A stretch of DNA of 64,000 nt from assembly GCA_963782685.1 (NCBI GenBank), contig CAWAKV010000007.1, forward strand, positions 25,558 through 89,557, written 5' to 3'. This DNA comes from an uncultured Solirubrobacterales bacterium. Lineage in GTDB: Bacteria > Actinomycetota > Thermoleophilia > Solirubrobacterales > 70-9. The position numbers and the translations under genes were made by a program. How positions within the stretch are numbered: the stretch's first letter is position 1; the number at the start of each line of letters is the position of its first letter. Positions 42,284 through 53,080 of the stretch are shown here, piece by piece. The notes below the pieces were generated by a model, which saw only the letters and a list, made by a program, of their open reading frames with translations, had not been told where the DNA came from and did no database searches.

Positions 42284-43248
42284 GGGTTGCGGTCCTCTGC
42301 GGCGGCCGTTCCTCCGAGCACGACGTCTCGCTGCGCTCGGGCGAGGCGGTGGCGCGTGGGCTGGAGGAGGCCGGCCACGAGGCGCTGCTGGTAACGATCG
42401 CCCGCGAGGGCGGCTGGAACTTCCGCGGCGCGCCGGTCGAGCTGCTGCCGGCCGCGGGGCTCTTTGGCGCCGACGCCGCCTTCCCCGCCCTGCACGGGCC
42501 CTTCGGCGAGGACGGCAGCGTCCAGGGGGTGCTCGAGTGGCTCGACGTCCCCTACGTCGGCTCCGACGTGCTCGCCTCGGCCGTCTGCATGGACAAGCTG
42601 ACGCTGAAGCGCCTCTTCGCCCAGCGTGGGCTGCCGCAGGTCGAGTTCGTCGGCGTCGGCGAGGGGGACTGGCGCCAGCGCTGCGGCGAGATGGGGCTGC
42701 CGCTCTGGGTCAAGCCCTCGCGCCTCGGCTCCAGCGTCGGCATCAGCAAGGTCGAGAGCGTGGGGGAGGAGCTCGACCGCGCGGTCGAGCTGGCGCTGCG
42801 CCACGACCCCCGCGTGATCGTCGAGGCGCATGCCCCCGGCCGCGAGGTCGAGTGCTCCCTGCTTGGCAACGAGCGGGTCGAGACCTCGCTGCCGGGCGAG
42901 GTGATCGCCCACGGCGAGTGGTACGACTACGAGACCAAGTACAGCGACGGCGGCATGGAGCTGGTTGTCCCCGCTCCGATCCCCGGCGAGCTGGTGACGT
43001 CCCTGCGCGAACTCGCCGTCGAGGCCTTCGATCTGGGCGGCTGCTCCGGCCTCGCCCGCTGCGACTTCTTCCTCGAAGCCGACGGCCGCGTCCTCGTCAA
43101 CGAGATCAACACCATGCCCGGCTTCACCGAGACGAGCGTCTACGCCAAGCTCTGGGAGGCCACTGGCCTTCCCTACCCCGACCTATGCGACCGTCTCATC
43201 GGGTTGGCGATCGAGCGCCACTCCGCGTCCCGCTCCCACGAGTTTTGA
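42280..43248 (+). CDS. ddl: D-alanine--D-alanine ligase (copy 2)
   Basis: ATG 42280 overlaps the pknB stop (ATGA); MRVAVLCGGRSSEHDVSLRSG.., ..ALHGPFGEDGSVQG.., ..WVKPSRLGSSVGI.., ..NEINTMPGFT.. Confidence 0.85.
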   Translation: MRVAVLCGGRSSEHDVSLRSGEAVARGLEEAGHEALLVTIAREGGWNFRGAPVELLPAAGLFGADAAFPALHGPFGEDGSVQGVLEWLDVPYVGSDVLASAVCMDKLTLKRLFAQRGLPQVEFVGVGEGDWRQRCGEMGLPLWVKPSRLGSSVGISKVESVGEELDRAVELALRHDPRVIVEAHAPGREVECSLLGNERVETSLPGEVIAHGEWYDYETKYSDGGMELVVPAPIPGELVTSLRELAVEAFDLGGCSGLARCDFFLEADGRVLVNEINTMPGFTETSVYAKLWEATGLPYPDLCDRLIGLAIERHSASRSHEF

Positions 43249-43999
43249 CCGCCGCGCGCCAGCCGTAGCTGATGGCCGTTTGGCCGACCACGATGTCGGC
43301 GTCCGCTCGGACCGGCATCGCCCGTACACCGTTTACGCGGCAGAACGTCGCGACGTCCTCTCCATTGGCCCAAGTGCCGTTGAGGCTTCCGAGGTCGCGC
43401 ACCAAGAGAATCCCAGGCTCTGTCAGCTTGACTGCGGCGTGTTGTCGGGAGACCGGCGTGTAGTCGAGCGAGAACTGGACATCAGACTTCGTGCCGCGGC
43501 CAATGCGCAGCCATTCGCCAGCGGAGAGCTTGAGTACCTTTGCCTCGTTTCCGGGTCCCGCCTCCTCCTCCGGATGGTCCGGGGTCCAGATCAGATAGTC
43601 GCCGCCCGCCTGCTCGTCCAGAAGGCGCCTATGAGAGTGCGGCACCGGCATGAAGTCGGTCGTCGGATGGTTTTCCCCCGTCCCGCCGCTTGCCCGCACG
43701 TCTTGCCGCAGACCTAGATGAGCGCCGCCGGCTCCATCGAGGCTTTTCCGACGGCCGCCCTCATCGCCAACTTGATCCCGTTCTTCGATCGCGGTCAGAA
43801 CCGTGGTCTCGGAGCCGCTTGACGCCCGCTTCCTTTTCCGCTCGCTGTGGACGATCAGGACGATGCCGCCGAGAAGCGCGAGCAGCCACACAGCGACCAC
43901 GAGGGGGGTCGAGCTGAGCCCGTCCGCCACCGTCGCAACCGCTCCACCGACGCCCGCCGCGATCAAGGCGCCGCCAACTAGCTTGGATACCTCAGGCAT
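43196..43999 (-). CDS. membrane-anchored FHA-domain protein
   Basis: Two N-terminal TM segments, then ..WLRIGRGTKSDVQFSLDYTPVSRQHAAVKLTEPGILLVRDLGSLNGTWANGEDV... Lower G+C; its 3' end overlaps ddl copy 2 by 53 nt. Confidence 0.7.
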   Translation of the reverse strand: MPEVSKLVGGALIAAGVGGAVATVADGLSSTPLVVAVWLLALLGGIVLIVHSERKRKRASSGSETTVLTAIEERDQVGDEGGRRKSLDGAGGAHLGLRQDVRASGGTGENHPTTDFMPVPHSHRRLLDEQAGGDYLIWTPDHPEEEAGPGNEAKVLKLSAGEWLRIGRGTKSDVQFSLDYTPVSRQHAAVKLTEPGILLVRDLGSLNGTWANGEDVATFCRVNGVRAMPVRADADIVVGQTAISYGWRAAVKTRGSGTRSGARSPTR

Positions 44000-44022
44000 A
44001 GTTGTCTTTCGTCGCTTTGCGA

Positions 44023-44047
44023 GCTAGACACTAACATAATGTCTAGC
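44023..44047. promoter_or_regulatory. operator-like palindrome in the AT-rich divergent promoter region
   Basis: GCTAGACA-N9-TGTCTAGC. Related half-sites TGTCTGGC (44080-44087) and ATGTCAT (44103-44109) / ATGACAT (44142-44148) bracket the AAGGAG RBS. Confidence 0.4.
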
Positions 44048-44151
44048 AACTGTATCGAGCTTTTAATAGAAACGAAAAATGTCTGGCATTTAGCGTTACG
44101 TTATGTCATAATGCGGGCGGAAATGACCACCCGTTAAGGAGATGACATCCG

Positions 44152-44403
44152 ATGAAGACGCGAACGACGACGATCCGGATTCACGATGCCCAGCTCCGGT
44201 TCCTGGAACTGATCGCGGAACACGACGGCGTGTCTGTCGCCGACGTTCAGCGAGCCGCCTTCACCGCCTACAGCGAGGAGCGCGCCCAGGCCAACAAGGA
44301 GCTGTCCACGGCGCGTGACCGGGTCGCCGAGGAATGGAAGGACGAGGATGACGCGCGGAGACAAGAGACGCTCCAGCGGGCGCTGGGGGAGAGCGTCGAG
44401 TAG
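44152..44403 (+). CDS. ribbon-helix-helix (CopG/Arc-like) DNA-binding protein
   Basis: AAGGAG 44136-44141 then ATG. TTTIRIHDAQLRFLELIAEHDGVSVADVQRAAFTAY has a strand-helix-helix pattern. 83 aa with an acidic tail. Confidence 0.55.
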   Translation: MKTRTTTIRIHDAQLRFLELIAEHDGVSVADVQRAAFTAYSEERAQANKELSTARDRVAEEWKDEDDARRQETLQRALGESVE

Positions 44404-45315
44404 GTGAGCGCCGCCGCTCCGCAGCAGGGCGAGGCCTCGCCCGAGTTCCCGCTCCTGCCCTTGGAGCAGGAGGAGGCGCGGGATCCGTCGGTTGCGGGCG
44501 CCAAGGCGGCGACCCTGTCGCGCCTCCGCCAGGCCCTTCCGGGCCGTGTGCCCCCCGGCTGGGTCCTTCCGGCCGCCAGCACCGCCGCCCTTCTCGATGC
44601 CGAGGGCGGGAGCGAGGAACGGCCGACTCTCGAGTCGCTGCGGGCGGGGCTCCAGCGGGCGCTTGGGAGCGAAACCTCGGGGGTCTTTGCCGTGCGCTCG
44701 TCCGGCCTCGACGAGGATTCGCCGCGGCACTCGTTCGCCGGCCAGTACCGGACGCTCCTCGGGGTCCGTGGTGACAGCTCACTCGCGGACGCCGTGCGCG
44801 CATGCGCGCACTCCGGCTCCGCTCCCCACATCGATGCCTATCGACAGCAGGCGGGGAGCCTCAACGTGGGTGCGCCGGCGGTCCTCATCCAAGAGATGGC
44901 GCCCGCCGATCGTGCCGGTGTGGCCTTCACCTCCAATCCCGTGAGCGGTGCCGACGAGGTCGTCATCGACGCTGGGTACGGGCTCGGCGACCTCGTCGTT
45001 GGCGGAGAGATCACGCCCGATGAGCTCGGTGTGGACGGAAGCGGCAGCGTGCTTTGGAGCAAGATCGGCAGCAAGCGGCGGATGAGCGTCCTGACGGCGG
45101 ATGGAGTCGTGCAGATACCGATTCCCCACGCTTTCCGGCGGCGCCTATCTCTTGCTCCGGCTCAAATCGCCGCCGTCGCCGAGGCCGCCGAGCTCTGCAG
45201 GACGACGCTGGGCTTCCACGCGGATGTCGAGTGGGCCATAGCGGATGGTGCAGTGCTCGTGCTCCAAGCGCGCCCGATAACGGCGACCGCCTCTGCAAGG
45301 CGGCGAAAGTCATGA
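44404..45315 (+). CDS. PEP/pyruvate-binding (PPDK_N-type ATP-grasp) domain protein
   Basis: GTG immediately after the upstream TAG; ..GAKAATLSRL.., ..FAVRSSGLDEDSPRHSFAGQY.., ..VLIQEMAPADRAGVAFTSNPVSG.., ..GLGDLVVGGEITPDE.. Confidence 0.75.
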   Translation: MSAAAPQQGEASPEFPLLPLEQEEARDPSVAGAKAATLSRLRQALPGRVPPGWVLPAASTAALLDAEGGSEERPTLESLRAGLQRALGSETSGVFAVRSSGLDEDSPRHSFAGQYRTLLGVRGDSSLADAVRACAHSGSAPHIDAYRQQAGSLNVGAPAVLIQEMAPADRAGVAFTSNPVSGADEVVIDAGYGLGDLVVGGEITPDELGVDGSGSVLWSKIGSKRRMSVLTADGVVQIPIPHAFRRRLSLAPAQIAAVAEAAELCRTTLGFHADVEWAIADGAVLVLQARPITATASARRRKS

Positions 45316-46848
45316 GCGCATCCGGCCAGGGCGCTCATGAGTGGGTGACCGCCGTTGCCCGCCCCAACACCCCACTCTTTCTGAGCTTTCTCATCTCGGG
45401 TCAGAGCCGGTCCGCGATCGAGGCCAACACGGGATTGCCCATCGGGTTCGAGAACATCCGTCGCGCTGGCATTCGATTGCAGTACAAGCGCGCGGAGCTG
45501 GCCGCAGCGACGGCCGTCGTACGTGAGCGAAGCACCGCGGAAGGCGTCGCCTTCTTCGAGCGCTATGCCGATCGCTGCCTCGGCTCTTGCCGTGCCTTGC
45601 TGAGGACAGTCGATCGGCTCGCGGCGGAGCACCGTATCCAGGAAGGGAGTCGCGAGAGCCTGCAGCCGGCCCTCGAGCGCTACTTCACGACCGCGGCGGA
45701 GCTGGGGTCCTTCCTGCAGACGCTAATTGTCGTCCAGTTCGAGCTCGAGGACCTGCTGCGTGGGTTTGTGACCGATCACCTGGATCAGCCGACCGGCGAG
45801 GACGTTCGAGGAGTCATGAGAGCGCTCCAGATCTCGCTCGAGCCGACCGACGAGCTGTGCAACCTCACCGAAATGTTGAAGCTCGCCCTTCTGGCGCAGA
45901 GCACGGCGGCCGACCATCGCGAATGGATCGCCGTCGACCCGATAGCGCTCGTTGCGCGTGTGGCGTACCGGCACCCCGCTGTCTGGGCCGACCTCGAGTC
46001 CTACCAGGCGCGTTTCGGCTGGATGGGGCGACGCTACTACTCCGGCGATCCGATCACTCCCGTTGACGTCGGCCTGCGGCTCCAGAACCTCCTGCGCGAG
46101 GACTGCGAGGAGCGGCTCGCGAAGATCGAGCGTCGCCGCAGCGACCATCTCGAAGAGCGCGAGCGGGCCATAGCAAGGCTGGGGCCCGACGCGCGCCGCC
46201 TGGCCGACGTCCTCAGCCGCTACATGTACCTGCGCAGCTACCGCCTCGAACGCTTTCTTCATCGCTCACGAGCGGGTGGTACCGCTGTTCGACGAAGCCG
46301 CGCATCTCCTGGCGCTCGACGGTTACGAGGACACCGTTCAGCTGAGCTGGCAAGAGCTCATGGACGGCATCCAAGGCCGCTGCGAAGGGCGAGATCTGGC
46401 GTCCAGGGCGGCCGAGCGCCGCGCCGGCTTCGAGTTCGTCGTTCGCGGCGGCAGCACCAAATGGATCGCCGCCAGCCACCCCGCCAGGACGGCCGCCGCA
46501 TCCGAGACGCCGCCGGAGACCCTGCAAGGCGTGTCCGGCTGGCAAGGGCGGTCGCGAGGCCGCGTCCGGGTGATCGCCAGCGACGACGACATGCTTCTCA
46601 TGCAGCCCGGCGAGATCCTCGTCGCGACGATGACCCAGCCACGACTAATGCTCGCGGTCGAGAAGGCGAGCGCGATAGTCACCGACGAGGGCGGCATGCT
46701 CTGCCACGCGGTCCTCGTCAGCCGCGAGTTCAACCTACCCTGCGTTATCGGGACCGAACGGGCGACGCATGTTCTTCGCAGCGGCGACCTCGTGGACGTG
46801 GACGCCGAGGAAGGCGTCGTGCGACTCGTCAGCCGGCCAAAACACTGA
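45312..46848 (+). CDS. helical domain + PEP-utilizer swivel phosphohistidine domain protein; one frame break
   Basis: ATGA overlap with the upstream gene. C-terminus ..GEILVATMTQPRLMLAVEKASAIVTDEGGMLCHAVLVSREFNLPCVIGT.. carries the mobile-domain His motif. A +1 step near 46250 joins ORF 45054..47327 to ORF 46276..46848. Confidence 0.7.
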
Positions 46849-46865
46849 TCAAGGGAGAATTGACC

Positions 46866-47327
46866 ATGACTGCAATGCTCACCGCGAAGCGCGACATACG
46901 CGCCGACCCAGACCGAGCGATGAGATGGAGGCATCCCGGGCTGCTCCGGCGCTACTGCTCCGATTTCGGCAAGACGCCCGAGGAGGCGGAGCAATGCTTC
47001 ACGGCCTTCAAGCAATTCCTCGTCGTCTGTGCGCTGGCGGACGGCGAGCGGGCGCCGTCGGCTTCGGTCGACGATATGTGGCATACGGCCCTTCTCTTCA
47101 GCCGCTCCTACCTACGGTTTTGCGAGCAGGTCCTCGGCGAGGTGGTGCACCACGAGCCGCTCGAGACGACCCCGGATGTCGCCCCCTACGCCGCGGCGAG
47201 GGCGGATGCACTTGCTCTGTTCGGCGAGCTGCCCGACGCGCACTGGCCCAGCCCAGGATGGGTGCAGCTGTGCGGCAGCAAGTATCCCGGCAAGGACTGT
47301 CCATCCTGGCCAGGTGAGCTGATCTGA
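46866..47327 (+). CDS. GRDP/DUF1399-like small protein (hypothetical)
   Basis: AAGGGAGAA then ATG 46866. ..FKQFLVVCAL..VDDMWHTALLFSRSYLRFCEQVLGEVVHHEP.. resembles the W-H..Y..C..HH core of glycine-rich-domain-protein-like families, as I recall it. Confidence 0.4.
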   Translation: MTAMLTAKRDIRADPDRAMRWRHPGLLRRYCSDFGKTPEEAEQCFTAFKQFLVVCALADGERAPSASVDDMWHTALLFSRSYLRFCEQVLGEVVHHEPLETTPDVAPYAAARADALALFGELPDAHWPSPGWVQLCGSKYPGKDCPSWPGELI

Positions 47328-47328
47328 C

Positions 47329-48165
47329 GTGTCGGTCAACGTCCTGGTTCTCGAGGACCGAGAGTCCACGAGGAACGTAATCAGGGGTTACCTCGAGGCG
47401 AACCTGTCCCGCGACGCCACCGAGACGGACAACCCCGATCCGGATGCCGCGGCCGGCCGGCTCGCGCATGTCCTTCCGCCTGGCTGGCTGCCCTTCAGGC
47501 GCCACGATTTCAACGTTTGCTGCGCCAACGACGGCGAGATCGGAACTCTCACCCAGATGGCGGAGGGCTCGGACCGCGTACGGCTCCGAGAGTACGTGAG
47601 CTCGATCTGCGTCGAGTCGTTTGCCACGGAGCCGGAACTGCCGGACGTGCTCGTCGTCGATCTCGCGCTCTCGGATAACGAGCAGCACGAACTCATGGCC
47701 AAAGAGGCCAACTGGCCGTCGCTGACCTGCAAAGAGTGCCCCCTGCCCGAGCCCGACTCCGCGATTGAGGATCCACGAGACCTGGTGGAAGGGATGACCG
47801 GATTCAAGGTCCTCGGAGCGCTGGCGGGAGAGCTGCCGATCATCGCCACGTCCTACGCGAGCCATCCGCTCGTCTCCTATCACTGCCTGGTCAACGGCGC
47901 CCGGGTGTTCATCCGCAAGCCGGTCCGCGAGAAGGAGACGATCGAGGGCCGGGAGGGATGGGATTGGGCGGCAGCCGCCCGGTATGGCGCCGAAGAGCTC
48001 CAGAAGCGGGGAGAGCGGGCGGCCGATCCACTTGCCGCCGTCGTTCTGAACTACCTGACGATGCTCACTGCGCACATCCTCGCGGTTCTCCCGAACATCG
48101 CCCTGCAACAGCTGGGCGAGTGCCGAGACGACAATCTCCAGGGGCCTGCTCCGGTGGCTCCATGA
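47329..48165 (+). CDS. atypical receiver (REC)-like protein with large insertions
   Basis: GTG 47329. VLVLEDRES (beta1), DVLVVDLALSD (beta3 Asp), PIIATSYAS (beta4 Thr/Ser) and ARVFIRKP (beta5 Lys) occur in the right order but with ~70-aa and ~40-aa insertions. No output domain recognised. Confidence 0.4.
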   Translation: MSVNVLVLEDRESTRNVIRGYLEANLSRDATETDNPDPDAAAGRLAHVLPPGWLPFRRHDFNVCCANDGEIGTLTQMAEGSDRVRLREYVSSICVESFATEPELPDVLVVDLALSDNEQHELMAKEANWPSLTCKECPLPEPDSAIEDPRDLVEGMTGFKVLGALAGELPIIATSYASHPLVSYHCLVNGARVFIRKPVREKETIEGREGWDWAAAARYGAEELQKRGERAADPLAAVVLNYLTMLTAHILAVLPNIALQQLGECRDDNLQGPAPVAP

Positions 48166-49259
48166 TCTCCGGCCGGGTCGATGCGATCATCGTCGGCGCC
48201 GGAGTGATAGGCCTGACCGCCGCACACGAGCTCACCCGCCGCGGGAGGTCGGTGCTCTGCTTCGAGCAGGGTGCGGCCGGACAGGGTCAGTCGGCGGGGG
48301 ACGCGCGGATCTTCCGCAACATCCATGACACGTCACAGATGACTCGCAGGGCAGCTCGAGCTCGAACGGCTTGGCGCTGCCTCGAAAGTCAGCTCGGCAA
48401 GACGCTGATCGGCAGCGAGGGAATGCTTGTTTACGGCAGCGCGAGCGCGCAGGGCAGCGATTGGACGCAGTTGGGGGTGGAAGCGCGACGGCTTCGCCCC
48501 CCCGAGGCCGAGTCGCTGCTGCCTCGCGCGGCGCCGACTCGGGAGGCGCTGTTTGACGTCCGCGCCGGCGCGATACGTGCCGATCGCGTGTGTTCGAGGC
48601 TGGCAGCCTCACTCGGCGCGAAGCTCAAAAGGGGTCGTGTGCTCGGCCTGCGCGCTCACGGTTCGGAGGTCGAGGCGCAGACCTCCGTGGGGACTTGGTC
48701 GTGTGGCACGGCGATCGTCGCGGCAGGCGTCCATACGGCCGCGCTGGCCGCGGCCCACGGCATCGACATTCCCGAGCGCCGCGGCGTGCACGCGCAGATC
48801 TCTTTCGAGCTGTTGCCGGGGGTCGAGCCACCCTGCTTCCTCGATCGCAGCGACCAGTTTGGCGAGCAGGCCTACGGGTTGCCCCTGCCGGGCAGGCGGG
48901 AGATGGCGGTGGGCCTTGACCATGCCGGCGGTTTGCTGAACGTTCTCAGCGGCGACGTGCTGCCGCCGTCGTCGGCTCTGCGCGAGGCCGAAGCGCGGAT
49001 AGTGACGTACGTCGAGAGGGCCTTGCCCAAGGCCCTCGGCTCACCCACGTCATCGCGCTTGTGCGTATTCACGCCGCTCGGCGCCGACCCCGACGCCTTC
49101 TCGGCCTGGCAGGCCGGGCCGATCACCTTTGTCGCCGGTCACAATGCGTTCAAGTTTGCGCCACTGATCGCCGCCGAGCTCGCGGACATCTGCGAGGGAG
49201 GCGCCGTATCGGAGTCGCTTCAGCCCAGCAGCTCGATGTCGCTGATCTCGATCTGGTAG
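48162..49259 (+). CDS. FAD-dependent oxidoreductase (DAO / sarcosine-glycine oxidase-like)
   Basis: ATGA overlap with the upstream gene; dinucleotide fold DAIIVGAGVIGLTAAHELTRRGRSVLCFEQ; 365 aa, intact. Confidence 0.75.
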   Translation: MISGRVDAIIVGAGVIGLTAAHELTRRGRSVLCFEQGAAGQGQSAGDARIFRNIHDTSQMTRRAARARTAWRCLESQLGKTLIGSEGMLVYGSASAQGSDWTQLGVEARRLRPPEAESLLPRAAPTREALFDVRAGAIRADRVCSRLAASLGAKLKRGRVLGLRAHGSEVEAQTSVGTWSCGTAIVAAGVHTAALAAAHGIDIPERRGVHAQISFELLPGVEPPCFLDRSDQFGEQAYGLPLPGRREMAVGLDHAGGLLNVLSGDVLPPSSALREAEARIVTYVERALPKALGSPTSSRLCVFTPLGADPDAFSAWQAGPITFVAGHNAFKFAPLIAAELADICEGGAVSESLQPSSSMSLISIW

Positions 49260-50731: not shown

Positions 50732-51740
50732 CTACGTCGTACGGATGATCCTTCTACCGTACGACCGATCCTCTGCGCCTGCGGATAGTGGCGGCGCAGC
50801 GATTCGACCGCGACCTCCTCGTCGTCCGCGGCGACCACGCAGCAGAAGCCGCAGCCCATGTTGAAGACGTCGTGCATCTCCTCGTCCGGGACCCCGGCGC
50901 GCTCCTGGATCAGCTCGAAGATCGGCGGCACGGGGAGGGGGTCGTCGATCTCGTAGCCGACCTCGGCGGCGAGGCGCACGAGGTTGCCGAGGCCGCCGGA
51001 GGTGATGTGGGCCAGGCCGCGCACCGTCGACCTCGGAGCGCAGCAGCTCGAGCACCGGCTTGACGTAGATCTCGGTCGGCTCGAGCAGGACGTCGCCGAG
51101 CGGGCGACCGAGGCGGCCTTCGGGATCCTCGTCGAGCGGCAGGCCGTCGAGGGCCGAGCGGGCGAGGGTGTAGCCGTTGGAGTGGATGCCGGAGGAGGGC
51201 AGGCCGATCACCGGGTCGCCCGGGCTGCACCGCCGAGCCGTCGACGATCGCGTCGAGGGCGACGGTGCCGAAGCAGGCGCCGGCGACGTCGAAGCCGCGC
51301 ACCATGTCGCCCAGCTGGGCCAGCTCGCCGCCGGGGATCTCGACGCCGGCCAGCTCGGCGCCGCGCGCCAGGCCGACGCCGATCTGCTCGCAGACCTCCG
51401 GGTCGGCGCGCTCGATCGCGATGTAGTCGAGCATCGCCAGCGGCTCGGCGCCGACGCAGATCACGTCGTTGACGTTCATCGCGACGCAGTCGATCCCGAC
51501 CGTGTCGAAGCGGCCGAGCTGCTCGGCGACCAGCAGCTTGGTGCCGACCCCGTCGGTGGAGAGCGCGATCCCGGTCCGCTCGTCGATCCGGATCACGCTC
51601 GCGTAGTGGCCGGGCAGCGGCACCTGCCGCGAGGGCCGCCCCAGCTCGATCGCCCCCAGCGCCCGCACCAGTCCGGCGACGGCGGAGTCCGCCGCCCCCT
51701 GGTCGACCCCGGCCTTCGCGTAGGCGTCCGCGTCGCTCAC
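50728..51740 (-). CDS. purM: phosphoribosylformylglycinamidine cyclo-ligase (AIR synthetase); two frame breaks
   Basis: GTG 51740; ..YAKAGVD.., ..[14 protein letters not shown].., ..[18 protein letters not shown].., ..[16 protein letters not shown].., ..[13 protein letters not shown]... Breaks near 51219 (GGG run) and 51029. Confidence 0.85.
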
Positions 51741-53080
51741 GCCGGCGATTCTTTCAGGCGCTGCGGTAGGTCGGGGGTGGGCTCGAAGACGTACCGCTTC
51801 CCCTTTCGCTGCCGCAAGAGCAGACCGCGGTCGGTTAGGCCCGAGAGATCGGTTCGGGCGGTCTCGTGGGTGACTCGATGGCTGGTGGCGTGACTGCTGA
51901 ACGAGTAGACGTTGTGAGGGTGTCGCACGGCGTCGGTGAGCAGGGCCAGCTGTCGGTGGTTGAAGCCGTCGGCGCTCTGCAGGAGTCGCTCGACGTCCCG
52001 TACCTCGGCGATCTTGCGCTGTAGGTAGACGTCGTGCTCGTCGAGAGCTCGCTCGACCGTCTCCAGCTGGTGGATCAGGAAGTAGGTGGTATCGCCGCTG
52101 TCGGTCTCGGTCTCCAGAAAGGCACGCGTGTACCTGGAGGGCGCGTTGCGGAGGATCGGAGAGATGGGCAGGTACTCGATCAACCAGTAGCCGTGCCTCT
52201 GCATCGACCAAAAGAAGAGGATCCGAGCCGTACGACCGTTGCCGTCCTCGAAGGGGTGATCGTAGGCGAGCCAGAAGTGCAGCAGAATCGCCCGAACGAC
52301 TGGATGGATGAATTTCTCGTCGGCCTCCTCTTCGTTGGCGAAGGCGCAGAGCAGTTTCATGCGTTCCGGCAGTTGCTCTGCCCGAGGTGGCCTGTGGATC
52401 GGCTGCTCGTCCTCGTCGCGGTCGTAGACGGCAACCCGCTCTTCGCCGGGTTGCTGCAGCCGGCCCGCCGCCGAGGGATCGTCGAGGGTCCCCTCAGTGA
52501 CGATCCGGTGCAGCTCGAGGATCGAATCCAGGCTGAGCGTGTCGCCCATCTCCTCACGCATGAACTGAAGTGCCCGATAGTTGTTGGCGATCATCCGCTC
52601 GCTGCGATTTCGCGGTCGCCGCCCCGTCCGAAGCATCTCCTTTGCGACTCTCCGAGAGGTCGTCGCTCCCTCCAGCTGACTGGAGCGAATCGCCTCCTCC
52701 ATCAGCGAGTTGACGAGGAACCGCCGGCCCGCCTGCCGCTCCGACGTGACGACCTCGTCCATCGCGATCTCACCGCTGCACCGCTGATCGATGTGGTGCA
52801 GGTGCTTGAGCACGAGATCGGGCAGTCCGTACGTGAACCGAAGACCGTCGATTCCCATAAGGGGCAGCGGCCGCATTTCCGCTGCCCTCTTCGCCTTGAT
52901 CCCAAGCCACCATTCCTCGGTGCTCAATCCATCCGGGGAGGGCAGGTGGCGAAGCTTGTCCCAATGGAGGTACTTGTCAGCCGCAGGACCTTCGACGACC
53001 GCTGCCAGAGAACGCCCGGCCGCCTCGCCGCCGAGCTTTTCGAGCAGGTCGAGATAGGAAGGGGCCTTCGCTACGTACAC
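51737..53080 (-). CDS. Fic family protein (canonical motif, C-terminal wHTH-like region)
   Basis: Intact 447 aa; HPFEDGNGRTAR; inhibitory-type motif SSQLEGA. Its stop overlaps the purM start (GTGA). Lower G+C. Confidence 0.85.
   Translation of the reverse strand: MYVAKAPSYLDLLEKLGGEAAGRSLAAVVEGPAADKYLHWDKLRHLPSPDGLSTEEWWLGIKAKRAAEMRPLPLMGIDGLRFTYGLPDLVLKHLHHIDQRCSGEIAMDEVVTSERQAGRRFLVNSLMEEAIRSSQLEGATTSRRVAKEMLRTGRRPRNRSERMIANNYRALQFMREEMGDTLSLDSILELHRIVTEGTLDDPSAAGRLQQPGEERVAVYDRDEDEQPIHRPPRAEQLPERMKLLCAFANEEEADEKFIHPVVRAILLHFWLAYDHPFEDGNGRTARILFFWSMQRHGYWLIEYLPISPILRNAPSRYTRAFLETETDSGDTTYFLIHQLETVERALDEHDVYLQRKIAEVRDVERLLQSADGFNHRQLALLTDAVRHPHNVYSFSSHATSHRVTHETARTDLSGLTDRGLLLRQRKGKRYVFEPTPDLPQRLKESPA

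What the first reader, a model, noticed from the sequence alone, without database searches (positions are those of the whole stretch)
43196..49259. Uncharacterised lower-G+C operon: RHH + split ATP-grasp/swivel-His phosphotransferase + GRDP-like + REC-like + FAD oxidoreductase, divergent from a membrane FHA protein
Six same-strand genes are packed almost without gaps. The junctions are TAG|GTG at 44401-44406, ATGA at 45312-45315, a 17-nt gap, TGAcGTG at 47325-47331 and ATGA at 48162-48165. They sit behind an AT-rich promoter region shared with a membrane-anchored FHA protein (43196-43999). The gene contents are listed here.
- An RHH DNA-binding protein.
- A PPDK_N-type ATP-grasp protein (..FAVRSSGLDEDSPRHSFAGQY..).
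- A ~511-aa protein ending in a PEP-utilizer swivel domain with the phospho-His motif GGMLCHAVLVSREFNLPCVIGT.
- A 153-aa GRDP/DUF1399-like protein.
- An atypical receiver-like protein.
- A DAO-type flavoprotein (IIVGAGVIGLTAA).
The order ATP-grasp, helical middle, swivel-His is collinear with rifampicin-phosphotransferase/PpsA-like enzymes, but here it is split into two ORFs. I know of no described pathway that combines it with these partners. G+C by eye is about 62%, against more than 70% for the flanking ddl, pknB and purM. The island has one frame break in 6 kb. I saw no integrase or flanking repeats. Plausible roles are small-molecule (antibiotic or metabolite) phosphorylation plus oxidation, or a phosphotransfer-based signalling or defence module.
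Basis: partly seen in the sequence, partly recalled or inferred. Interest (0 to 1): 0.75.

Follow-up and report, generated by a model that had tools for sequence, protein, structure and literature searches.

The report
Split dikinase operon with dedicated receiver
This is a real, conserved and uncharacterised gene cassette: an ATP-driven phosphohistidine enzyme made of two proteins, which always travels with a small repressor and a rare receiver-type signalling protein, so it may be a new way of feeding phosphate into a receiver domain.

Summary
The genes, junctions, motifs and the single frame break are all present as described. The G+C dip was overstated: the operon is 67.6%, against 70-72% for the flanks.

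The ATP-grasp protein and the helical+swivel-His protein form a split, rifampin-phosphotransferase-like dikinase. This architecture is already known from the two-component small-molecule dikinases PpsAB, CreHI and HpeHI. All catalytic residues tested are conserved.

The frame break is one extra T. Every homologue lacks it, and so does an independent assembly that encodes the identical receiver protein.

The new result is the set of partners. The 278-aa receiver-like protein belongs to a very rare family: 49 cluster representatives among 1.84 billion. It keeps the phospho-Asp catalytic set. In all 8 independent loci examined it lies beside such a dikinase pair, in four different gene arrangements and with no histidine kinase in any cassette; in all but one short contig that holds only the end of the PPDK_N gene upstream of REC, an RHH gene leads the operon.

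The GRDP-like protein and the sarcosine-oxidase-like flavoprotein are lineage-specific add-ons. The FHA protein is not part of the cassette.

My best reading is a self-contained phosphotransfer cassette in which swivel His~P serves the receiver Asp, alone or alongside a small-molecule acceptor. No described system, PADLOC model or NCBIfam model matches it.

The parts
43196..43999 (-). Membrane-anchored FHA protein (267 aa). It is a divergent neighbour, not part of the conserved cassette.
   Evidence: Pfam FHA 3.5e-11 and NCBIfam FhaB/FipA-like 1e-7. It is present only in the window, L001/L002 and the 6128-bp contig. It is absent from L163, L006, L004, L164, L168 and L175.
44000..44151 (+). AT-rich divergent promoter/operator region. 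It contains a -35 CTGGCA / TG-extended -10 CATAAT at 44083-44112, an inverted repeat at 44023-44033/44037-44047, and the direct repeat AATGTCT(A/G)GCA at 44038 and 44078.
   Evidence: 42.8% G+C. Promoter scan. Repeats. The TATGTCATAATGC block and the SD AGGAGATGACATCCGATG are shared with L001, and CATAATG with L163. No Rfam match. The operator role for the RHH protein is inferred.
44152..44403 (+). RHH (CopG-type) protein of 83 aa with a charged C-terminal tail. Core component; presumed operon repressor.
   Evidence: Homologous to the RHH_1-positive first genes of L164 and L004 (3e-5 and 2e-4) and of L175 (38% identity, 2e-11). Pfam RHH_1 hits for L006, L164, L168 and L175. Its stop codon abuts the next gene's start codon.
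44404..45315 (+). ATP-grasp (PPDK_N) subunit of the split dikinase, 303 aa.
   Evidence: Pfam PPDK_N 4e-50. The best PDB match is the stand-alone 387-aa chain 9goj_A (4e-26). The RPH residues Lys22, Arg117, Thr136 and Glu297 align to K34, R98, T117 and the E of DVEW; the Lys22 pairing rests on a low-scoring N-terminal alignment to PEP-synthase-type chains (residues from PMC4844700).
45312..46848 (+). Second dikinase subunit, 511 aa after removing one T at 46254-46256. It has an N-terminal helical acceptor-binding domain homologous to the RPH rifampin-binding domain, and a C-terminal swivel domain with catalytic His465.
   Evidence: Frame repair. About 55 intact homologues of 500-530 aa. H465, R308 and R311 are invariant. 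The profile aligns to RPH 528-866, with R308 opposite RPH Arg666. An independent contig has an intact 511-aa gene. dN/dS is 0.20.
46254..46256 (+). Site of the single-base frame break: TTT where the family needs TT (...CGC TTC TTC ATC...).
   Evidence: It lies directly after the conserved LRSxRL(E/D) phosphotransfer motif.
46866..47327 (+). 153-aa all-helical protein (PF27765 UCP032817-like, GRDP-like). Lineage-specific accessory.
   Evidence: Precomputed PF27765 label. Conserved Cys/His/Trp set: C44, C55, W72-H73, C86, H95-H96, C136. AF2 pLDDT 83 with no PDB fold match. Found only in the window, L001, L163 and L006. Homologues elsewhere have no dikinase nearby.
47329..48165 (+). Atypical receiver protein (278 aa) with a (beta-alpha)5 core, large insertions and C-terminal helices 213-268. 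The predicted phospho-acceptor is Asp111. Core component.
   Evidence: AF2 pLDDT 88. Foldseek hits are almost all receiver domains (probability about 1, TMt 0.6-0.68). E9-D10, D111, T174 and K197-P198 are conserved over 31 sequences of 24-81% identity. The family has only 49 representatives in 1.84e9. It is always next to a dikinase.
48162..49259 (+). FAD amine oxidase of the monomeric sarcosine oxidase / N-methyltryptophan oxidase / NikD family (365 aa). Lineage-specific accessory. Its 3' end overlaps the convergent pknB-like gene by 40 nt.
   Evidence: Pfam DAO 1e-28. NCBIfam MTOX 1e-26, but 94 bits against a cut-off of 257. PDB sarcosine oxidases at about 1e-10. Present only in the window, L001 and L163.

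Best explanation
The region is a four-component phosphotransfer cassette (RHH repressor, ATP-grasp subunit, helical+swivel-His subunit, dedicated receiver protein). In this lineage it carries two accessory genes, a GRDP-like protein and a sarcosine-oxidase-like flavoenzyme.

Step 1 is shown by homology and conserved residues. The PPDK_N subunit binds ATP. His465 on the swivel domain of the second subunit attacks the beta-phosphate. The gamma-phosphate is lost, leaving His465~P plus AMP and Pi, as in RPH, PpsAB and HpeHI.

Step 2 is inferred from the conserved Arg308 site. The swivel domain carries the phosphoryl group to the N-terminal helical domain.

Step 3 is a hypothesis. The acceptor served there is Asp111 of the cassette's own receiver protein. 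This could be the only acceptor, or it could compete with a small-molecule hydroxyl, so that the receiver's phosphorylation state reports phosphate flux in the way PTS regulatory phosphorylations do.

Step 4 is a hypothesis. Receiver~P acts on the RHH repressor and/or on the variable accessory enzymes.

The window's copy has one extra base in the swivel gene, which is probably an assembly error.
For: Dikinase chemistry:
- Pfam PPDK_N and PEP-utilizers hits, with no PEP-utilizers_C barrel.
- The ATP-grasp residues K34, R98, T117 and E (DVEW) align to RPH Lys22, Arg117, Thr136 and Glu297 (PMC4844700).
- His465 is invariant in 39 sequences.
- The helical domain aligns to the RPH rifampin-binding domain. 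Invariant Arg308 lies opposite Arg666, the residue essential for the second transfer.

Receiver:
- The fold is confirmed.
- The full acidic pair / Asp / Thr / Lys-Pro set is conserved across 31 divergent members.

Linkage:
- The receiver family is tiny: 49 representatives at E <= 1e-3 among 1.84 billion.
- All 8 independent loci with flanks place it beside PPDK_N and/or the swivel subunit, in four arrangements. Co-directional: window, L001, L163, L006. Convergent at the 3' end of the swivel gene, overlapping it in L004 and L168 and 25 nt apart in L164. Directly after PPDK_N: L166. After LOG in a reordered operon: L175.
- No histidine kinase or HPt gene is in any of these cassettes.
- RHH is also conserved across the deepest split: 38% identity to L175, where the swivel subunit is only 25% identical.
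- Receiver-linked dikinases span the whole clade tree, so the link is ancestral.
- The minimal loci (L004, L164, L168) contain only RHH + dikinase + receiver, so the system is self-contained.
- All six window genes are under purifying selection, with dN/dS 0.19-0.48 against L001.
Against: - No fusion of the receiver with either dikinase subunit was found.
- No phosphotransfer from a swivel His to a receiver Asp has been described, to my knowledge or in the literature searches.
- All characterised relatives (RPH, PpsAB, CreHI, HpeHI, PigC) act on small molecules.
- Some clade members lack the receiver within 10 kb: L003, L165 and the fused forms L170/L171. The dikinase can therefore work without it.
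- RPH Glu667 is Ser in the window protein.
- The accessory enzymes (amine oxidase, dihydroorotase-type amidohydrolase, LOG) point to a small-molecule or nucleotide substrate.
- Only 8 loci could be inspected.
- No complex model could be run.
Confidence: 0.42

Rival explanations
1. It is an ordinary two-component small-molecule dikinase operon for detoxifying or catabolising an unknown hydroxylated, N-containing compound. The dikinase phosphorylates the compound. DAO (or the amidohydrolase or LOG in other lineages) and the GRDP-like protein process it. RHH represses the operon. The receiver protein is only a regulator or allosteric subunit and is not phosphorylated by the dikinase.
For: - Every characterised homologue phosphorylates a small molecule (PMC12167813, PMC4844700, PMC6114531).
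- The acceptor domain is homologous to the RPH drug-binding domain.
- Receiver-less members exist. L165 sits among a beta-lactamase, a Vgb lyase, a glyoxalase/Ble-like protein and an MFS transporter.
- The accessory genes are metabolic enzymes: MSOX-like, dihydroorotase-type and LOG.
Against: - The minimal loci have no further enzyme or transporter in the cassette.
- None of the carboxylase, P450 or phosphatase partners typical of Pps, Cre and Hpe pathways is present.
- This reading does not explain why a receiver family with intact phospho-Asp chemistry exists only beside these dikinases, without a kinase of its own.
Confidence: 0.3
2. It is a conflict module, either toxin-antitoxin-like or anti-phage. 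RHH acts as an antitoxin-type repressor. The dikinase acts as a toxic or effector kinase on a cellular or phage target. The receiver acts as sensor or switch, with swappable accessory effectors.
For: - An RHH-first operon with abutting stop and start codons, and weak RelB, VapB, ParD and DUF6290 antitoxin-type matches.
- L164 lies in an ICE-like region with ParB, a T4SS coupling protein, a relaxase, ArdA and a methyltransferase.
- L004 lies near an nSTAND NTPase and a transposase.
- L170 lies next to a serine recombinase.
- A conserved core with variable accessory genes.
- The cassette is found in unrelated genomic contexts.
Against: - No PADLOC match for any component in two loci.
- No close relatives in IMG/VR or in PLSDB plasmids.
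- The accessory genes are not typical effectors.
- In the window lineage the cassette is stably and vertically inherited inside a cell-division/PknB gene cluster.
Confidence: 0.12
3. In this particular genome the cassette is an inactivated remnant. The frame break is real, and it splits the swivel subunit into a helical fragment and a swivel fragment.
For: The window sequence does contain the extra base. The 0 frame reads on without a stop.
Against: - A 6128-bp contig from an independent assembly encodes the identical receiver protein and has identical gene lengths and spacings. Its swivel gene is one base shorter and intact at 511 aa.
- dN/dS of the repaired gene is 0.20.
- The break lies in a T run, a typical error site.
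- All of about 55 homologues are intact.
Confidence: 0.1

Closest known systems
Two-component small-molecule dikinases HpeHI, CreHI and PpsAB (phenylphosphate synthase)
   Same: A separate ATP-grasp subunit, plus a subunit that carries the RPH-type acceptor-binding domain and the swivel His. The catalytic His motif and the ATP-grasp residues are conserved. Neither has a PEP/pyruvate TIM barrel. The best PDB match is a stand-alone ATP-grasp chain (PMC12167813; PMC6114531).
   Different: The gene order is ATP-grasp first. The swivel subunit is shorter, 511 aa against 70 kDa for the PpsA subunit (PMC6114531), with the catalytic His at 465 against His581 in HpeH and His560 in PpsA (PMC12167813). 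There is no aromatic-catabolic neighbourhood. The obligatory RHH and receiver partners are not reported for those systems. The substrate is unknown.
Rifampin phosphotransferase (RPH)
   Same: The same three modules in the same order. The Arg666 equivalent (Arg308) and His825 equivalent (His465) are conserved. The mechanism is ATP -> His~PP -> His~P -> acceptor (PMC4844700).
   Different: RPH is a single polypeptide. The window proteins score 109 and 63 bits against an NCBIfam RPH cut-off of 999. Glu667 is Ser here. There is no evidence that rifamycin is the substrate.
PTS Enzyme I -> HPr (swivel His~P donating to a protein acceptor) and PTS-dependent regulatory phosphorylation
   Same: A homologous swivel phosphohistidine domain that hands phosphate to a separate small protein. 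The phosphorylation state of the partner reports substrate flux. This is established knowledge and is used here only as a mechanistic analogy.
   Different: The donor there is PEP, not ATP. The acceptor is a His on HPr, not an Asp on a receiver fold. There is no homology in the acceptor proteins.
Canonical two-component systems and phosphorelays (His kinase or HPt -> single-domain receiver such as Spo0F or CheY)
   Same: A receiver fold with the acidic pair, phospho-Asp, Thr and Lys. The presumed chemistry is His~P to Asp.
   Different: There is no HisKA/HATPase or HPt partner in the cassette. The receiver has about 80-residue insertions and falls below the Pfam threshold (17.8 against 30.2 bits). 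The candidate donor is a PEP-synthase-type swivel domain.
Monomeric sarcosine oxidase / N-methyltryptophan oxidase / NikD family (for the last gene)
   Same: A DAO fold with an N-terminal GxGxxG. The best hits are MTOX and MSOX.
   Different: It scores far below the equivalog cut-offs. The substrate is unknown. It is present in only part of the cassette family.

Membership tests
Two-component small-molecule dikinase (PpsAB/CreHI/HpeHI type) | Stand-alone ATP-grasp (PPDK_N) subunit encoded next to the His-carrying subunit | tested here: met
   PPDK_N 4e-50 in a 303-aa protein whose stop overlaps the start of the swivel gene (ATGA). The best PDB hit is the stand-alone 387-aa chain 9goj_A.
Two-component small-molecule dikinase (PpsAB/CreHI/HpeHI type) | Second subunit = RPH-type acceptor-binding domain + swivel domain, with the catalytic His in a GGxxxHA(A/V) motif | tested here: met
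   The profile aligns to RPH 528-866. GGMLCH465AV, with the His invariant in 39 sequences.
Two-component small-molecule dikinase (PpsAB/CreHI/HpeHI type) | ATP-phosphate-binding residues of the ATP-grasp domain (RPH Lys22, Arg117, Thr136, Glu297) | tested here: met
   K34, R98, T117 and the E of DVEW align to them; the Lys22/K34 pairing comes from a low-scoring N-terminal alignment to PEP-synthase-type chains, not from the RPH alignment itself (residue list from PMC4844700).
Two-component small-molecule dikinase (PpsAB/CreHI/HpeHI type) | Second-site Arg-Glu pair that positions His~P (RPH Arg666-Glu667) | tested here: inconclusive
   The Arg is conserved (invariant R308). The Glu position is Ser in the window and in most of the clade, but Glu in L175 (YLREYRLE).
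Two-component small-molecule dikinase (PpsAB/CreHI/HpeHI type) | Phosphorylates a small (phenolic) molecule, with catabolic partner genes nearby | tested here: not met
   No carboxylase, P450/phosphatase or ring-cleavage genes are in the cassette in any of the 8 loci. The activity itself cannot be tested with these tools.
Rifampin phosphotransferase (RPH) | Single about 860-aa polypeptide that reaches the NCBIfam equivalog score | tested here: not met
   It is split into two genes. The scores are 108.8 and 62.6 bits against a cut-off of 999.
PEP synthase / pyruvate phosphate dikinase | C-terminal PEP/pyruvate-binding TIM barrel (PF02896) | tested here: not met
   No PF02896 hit. The swivel domain is C-terminal. 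PEPS and PPDK align only over the swivel domain.
Response-regulator receiver domain | (beta-alpha)5 fold | tested here: met
   The AF2 model has pLDDT 88 with strands at 3-8, 61-65, 107-111, 171-175 and 193-196. The top Foldseek hits are receiver domains, with probability about 1.0 and TMt up to 0.68.
Response-regulator receiver domain | Catalytic set: acidic pair, phospho-acceptor Asp, Thr/Ser, Lys | tested here: met
   D111 is invariant; E9, D10, T174 and K197-P198 are conserved in at least 90% of 31 sequences of 24-81% identity.
Response-regulator receiver domain | Reaches the Pfam Response_reg gathering score | tested here: not met
   17.8 bits against 30.2. The other family members score 17-26 bits.
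Canonical two-component system | Cognate histidine kinase or HPt encoded with the receiver | tested here: not met
   None is present in any of the 8 cassettes. Unlinked kinases cannot be excluded.
Type II toxin-antitoxin module | Small RHH antitoxin followed by a known toxin family | tested here: not met
   RHH comes first and its stop abuts the next start. The antitoxin-model matches are only sub-threshold. The downstream genes match no toxin family.
Known anti-phage defence systems (PADLOC-DB 2.0) | Any component matching a defence-system model | tested here: not met
   There were no relevant hits for the 8 window proteins (one weak desaturase-model hit for the FAD motif of DAO) or for the 8 L175 proteins.
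GRDP-like / UCP032817-like (PF07173 / PF27765) | Match to the family model | tested here: inconclusive
   PF27765 is assigned in the collection's precomputed table but is absent from the Pfam copy I searched. PF07173 matches at E = 0.16 in 1 of 10 members. A Ralstonia homologue carries a Gly/Cys-rich tail.

The most novel reading that the evidence does not exclude
A new kind of His-Asp phosphorelay that needs no histidine kinase. An ATP-grasp/swivel-His dikinase of the PEP-synthase/RPH superfamily would be the dedicated phosphodonor for a private family of receiver proteins. The RHH repressor and swappable enzymes (amine oxidase, dihydroorotase-like, LOG, cyclase-like domain) would be its outputs. 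This would be a third route, besides HisKA kinases and small-molecule donors, for charging receiver domains.
Probability: 0.3. Interest if true: 0.85.

Novelty: new variant of a known kind. Interest (0 to 1): 0.62.

Why it matters
Two-component small-molecule dikinases were recognised as a subfamily only recently, and so far only in the catabolism of aromatic compounds. This cassette shows a deep-branching clade of them, mostly from uncultured bacteria, in a quite different setting. That setting is a self-regulated module that always carries its own receiver-domain protein.

If the swivel phosphohistidine charges the receiver aspartate, that would be a previously undescribed input into receiver domains. 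It would be a mechanistic bridge between PTS/PEP-synthase-type enzymes and two-component signalling.

If instead the enzyme modifies a small molecule, it is a candidate new resistance or scavenging kinase with an unusual regulator.

Either way the work defines a testable four-protein system and a new receiver family.

Tried and rejected
1. Programmed frameshift at CGC-TTT-CTT. Rejected: all homologues and an independent assembly of the same lineage are in frame, and no stimulatory stop follows.
2. Recent genomic island. Rejected for this lineage: the region is collinear at about 85% identity with L001 and diverges at host-like rates. There are no tRNA genes, integrase or flanking repeats.
3. 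FHA protein as part of the system. Rejected: it is absent from all other cassettes.
4. Riboswitch in the AT-rich leader. No Rfam hit.
5. Phage or plasmid origin. IMG/VR holds only distant swivel-domain hits. PLSDB holds no receiver homologue and no full-length swivel homologue.
6. The metagenome and genome-collection scans with the swivel profile mostly returned distant CPR/DPANN paralogues. None had receiver or GRDP-like neighbours, so they were of little use beyond serving as negative controls.
7. Fold search of the 153-aa protein. No PDB relative was found.
8. Contexts of GRDP-like homologues on plasmids (AlkB neighbour; ABC ATPase + cupin operon; a stand-alone TM form) gave no common function.
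9. The 664-aa 'swivel' call in L004 and the 561-aa ORF in L006 turned out to be over-extended calls. They run over a convergent receiver gene and a dihydroorotase-type gene respectively.
10. The radical SAM gene next to L175 is RlmN, a flanking housekeeping gene.
11. An exact look-up of three repaired 511-aa variants found none in the collection.

Full report
**1. What is in the sequence**

Window 43196-49259 holds one minus-strand gene and six tightly packed plus-strand genes.
- FHA protein: 43196-43999, minus strand.
- An 83-aa protein: 44152-44403.
- A 303-aa PPDK_N protein: 44404-45315.
- A gene at 45312-46848 that changes frame once.
- A 153-aa protein: 46866-47327.
- A 278-aa protein: 47329-48165.
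- A 365-aa DAO flavoprotein: 48162-49259.

The 152-nt divergent intergenic region has 42.8% G+C. It carries one promoter-like site, CTGGCA-18-TG-CATAAT at 44083-44112. The -10 block is shared with two relatives. The region also has an 11-nt inverted repeat and a direct repeat AATGTCT(A/G)GCA, which are candidate operators.

The 'lower G+C' claim is overstated. The operon is 67.6%, against 70-72% for pknB, ddl and purM and 69.6% for the whole window. GC3 is 80-85% against 87-95%.

**2. The frame break**

The upstream frame (from 45312) and the downstream frame (46276-46848) join into a 511-aa protein if one base is removed. Deleting one T of TTT at 46254-46256 gives ...YLRSYRLERFFIAHERV..., which matches the family consensus ...RLDVFFIAHERV....

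All of about 55 full-length homologues are uninterrupted proteins of 500-530 aa. A 6128-bp contig from an independent assembly encodes the identical 278-aa protein. It has the same gene lengths and spacings as the window, but its swivel gene is 1536 nt instead of 1537 nt and is intact at 511 aa. The repaired gene has dN/dS = 0.20 against its 85%-identical orthologue.

I therefore read the break as an assembly error or a very recent strain variant. It is neither a designed split nor a programmed frameshift.

**3. The enzyme core is a known kind**

Pfam and NCBIfam place the 303-aa protein in PPDK_N (4e-50). They place the C-terminus of the 511-aa protein in the PEP-utilizers swivel domain (2e-22). 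There is no PEP/pyruvate TIM barrel.

A profile of 39 family members aligns to Listeria rifampin phosphotransferase (5FBS) from residue 528 to 866. That span covers the second half of the rifampin-binding domain plus the swivel domain. Using the residues that mutagenesis showed to matter in RPH (PMC4844700):
- Lys22, Arg117, Thr136 and Glu297 correspond to K34, R98, T117 and the Glu of DVEW in the window ATP-grasp protein.
- His825 corresponds to His465, which is invariant.
- Arg666 corresponds to Arg308, also invariant. Glu667 is Ser here.

The split into an ATP-grasp protein and an acceptor-domain+swivel protein is not new. It defines phenylphosphate synthase PpsAB (PMC6114531) and the 'two-component small-molecule dikinases' CreHI and HpeHI (PMC12167813). 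The window ATP-grasp protein's best PDB match is a stand-alone 387-aa chain, 9goj_A (4e-26). On chemistry, this is a new member of that subfamily. It should make His465~P from the beta-phosphate of ATP.

**4. What travels with it**

I collected loci for close homologues of the swivel subunit and for homologues of the 278-aa protein. Receiver-linked loci:
- L001/L002 (85% identity) have the same six genes and the FHA gene in the same chromosomal setting: fhaA-fhaB-PP2C-ftsW-PBP-pknB-ddl | cassette | pknB-like-purM-Fic. The 16 kb are collinear at about 85% nucleotide identity.
- L163 (68%) has the same six genes, without the FHA gene, in an unrelated neighbourhood with P450, IclR, IDO and CHAT.
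- L006, a Conexibacter MAG (54%), has RHH - PPDK_N - swivel - a dihydroorotase-type amidohydrolase - the 153-aa protein - the 278-aa protein.
- L004, L164 and L168 (45-47%) have only RHH - PPDK_N - swivel. The 278-aa homologue is encoded convergently at the 3' end of the swivel gene, overlapping it in L004 and L168 and 25 nt apart in L164. L164 lies in an ICE-like region.
- L166 has PPDK_N followed directly by the 278-aa homologue.
- L175 has a swivel subunit only 25% identical. Its order is RHH - swivel - PPDK_N - LOG-family protein - a 526-aa protein whose N-terminal 262 residues belong to the 278-aa family. Its RHH is still 38% identical to the window's.

Loci without the 278-aa protein within 10 kb:
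- L003 and L165.
- The fused single-chain forms in CPR bacteria (L170, L171).
- All of about 150 distant CPR/DPANN paralogues.

In a neighbour-joining tree the receiver-linked members span the whole clade, including the outgroup, while the receiver-less ones are nested. The link therefore looks ancestral.

**5. The 278-aa protein is a real but very unusual receiver**

Pfam sees only a sub-threshold Response_reg match. An AlphaFold model built on 31 family sequences is confident (pLDDT 88). It shows five beta-alpha units with large insertions and two long C-terminal helices. Foldseek returns almost only receiver domains, with probability about 1 and TM up to 0.68 on the target.

Across 31 members at 24-81% identity, D111 is invariant. 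The acidic pair E9-D10, T174 and K197-P198 are conserved in at least 90%. So are the family-specific motifs DPR (148-150), LTGF and NPLV..HCL.NGA.

An exhaustive HMMER search of 1.84 billion cluster representatives found only 49 proteins at E <= 1e-3, of which 33 were at E <= 1e-10. Ordinary response regulators do not score. The more distant hits are receiver + class-III-cyclase-like fusions.

In short, a receiver family that keeps the phospho-Asp machinery is found next to a phosphohistidine-forming dikinase in 8 of 8 inspectable loci, in four gene arrangements. No histidine kinase or HPt gene is in any of the cassettes.

**6. The other genes**

*83-aa protein.* It is an RHH. It is homologous to first-gene products that hit Pfam RHH_1 in L004, L006, L164, L168 and L175. 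Antitoxin-type models match only weakly.

*153-aa protein.* It is labelled PF27765 (UCP032817-like) in the collection. It has a conserved Cys/His/Trp set and a confident all-helical model with no PDB relative. Its homologues elsewhere are not linked to dikinases:
- In a Rhodococcus plasmid it lies next to AlkB.
- In Ralstonia it is a TM protein with a Gly/Cys-rich tail.
- In small E. coli plasmids it sits in an ABC-ATPase/cupin operon.

*Flavoprotein.* It belongs to the sarcosine oxidase / N-methyltryptophan oxidase / NikD family but scores far below the equivalog cut-offs.

The 153-aa protein and the flavoprotein are lineage-specific accessories. The FHA protein is a neighbour from the host's Ser/Thr-kinase cluster. 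All six cassette genes are under purifying selection, with dN/dS 0.19-0.48.

**7. How it most likely works**

*Shown by homology and conserved residues.* ATP-grasp-dependent formation of His465~P on a swivel domain, and a conserved second phosphotransfer site (Arg308) in the helical domain.

*Inferred.* The cassette's own receiver, through Asp111, is an acceptor of that phosphoryl group. Three observations support this:
- The receiver family exists only beside these enzymes.
- It retains its catalytic residues.
- The minimal systems contain nothing else.

Whether the receiver is the sole acceptor is open. It may instead compete with a small-molecule hydroxyl, which would give a PTS-like flux sensor that reports to the RHH repressor. 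I put about 0.4 on phosphotransfer to the receiver.

The main rival, at about 0.3, is a conventional small-molecule dikinase operon in which the receiver is merely regulatory. Supporting it, all characterised relatives act on small molecules, receiver-less members exist, and the accessories are metabolic enzymes. A conflict or TA-like role gets about 0.1. It is suggested by the RHH-first layout and by the mobile-element contexts of L164, L004 and L170. It has no support from PADLOC, IMG/VR or PLSDB.

**8. Novelty**

No NCBIfam, PADLOC or Rfam model describes the set, and none of the full-text searches I ran turned up a paper that does. The enzyme core is a new member of a known subfamily. The obligatory RHH + private receiver partnership is a new variant, and could be a new kind of phosphorelay.

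**9. Limits**

Only 8 receiver-linked loci could be inspected. No complex prediction or biochemistry was possible. The host organism is unidentified. It is a high-G+C, actinobacterium-like contig of 144.5 kb held in NCBI/ENA.

Noticed in passing
L011:4859-17461 (also L110:2-6046 and L041:2466-9593): In DPANN archaeal contigs, single stop-free frames of 2000-4200 codons hold up to about 10 tandem copies of the helical+swivel-His module. These are either giant multi-swivel proteins or arrays of paralogues.
   Followed up: no
L175:1758-6823: A deeply divergent version of the cassette: RHH - swivel subunit - PPDK_N - LOG/TIGR00730 protein - receiver fused to a roughly 260-aa degenerate cyclase-like domain. 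The gene order of the two dikinase subunits is inverted relative to the window.
   Followed up: partly
P0168, P0180, P0183 (distant relatives of window 47329-48165): The nearest relatives of the receiver family outside the dikinase cassettes are 470-510-aa proteins with a receiver followed by a class III nucleotidyl-cyclase-like domain. The motifs are LxDxxGFS and GDAALVF, and Guanylate_cyc scores E = 0.026.
   Followed up: partly
L006:8558-9859: In the Conexibacter MAG a dihydroorotase-type amidohydrolase (TIGR00857, 332 bits, above cut-off) sits inside the cassette, between the swivel gene and the GRDP-like gene.
   Followed up: partly
L176:5274-6357, L177:4926-5624, L178:6857-7540: Homologues of the 153-aa protein occur without any dikinase. 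One is next to AlkB on Rhodococcus ruber plasmids. One is a TM protein with a Gly/Cys-rich tail on Ralstonia megaplasmids. One heads an ABC-ATPase/cupin operon on 7.9-kb E. coli Mob plasmids. AlkB and the MSOX-like DAO are both oxidative N-demethylases, which may be a coincidence.
   Followed up: partly
window 51737-53080 (-): The Fic-domain gene has low G+C (63.7%). It is only 69% identical to its L001 orthologue (dS 1.14), while its neighbours are 86-93% identical. It is a faster-evolving or separately acquired gene.
   Followed up: no
window 49220-49259: The 3' ends of the DAO gene and the convergent pknB-like kinase gene overlap by 40 nt, and the same overlap is present in L001. In L004 and L168 the receiver gene likewise overlaps the 3' end of the swivel gene in antisense.
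   Followed up: no
P0088 (hit list): A 554-aa protein fuses MerR/HTH_17 DNA-binding domains to a PEP-utilizers swivel domain. This suggests that some relatives couple the phosphohistidine module directly to transcription control.
   Followed up: no
L165:1637-8158: A receiver-less member of the dikinase clade lies among a beta-lactamase, a Vgb (streptogramin) lyase-like protein, a glyoxalase/Ble-like protein and an MFS transporter. A bacterial-globin-like gene takes the place of the RHH. This is a resistance-like neighbourhood.
   Followed up: no
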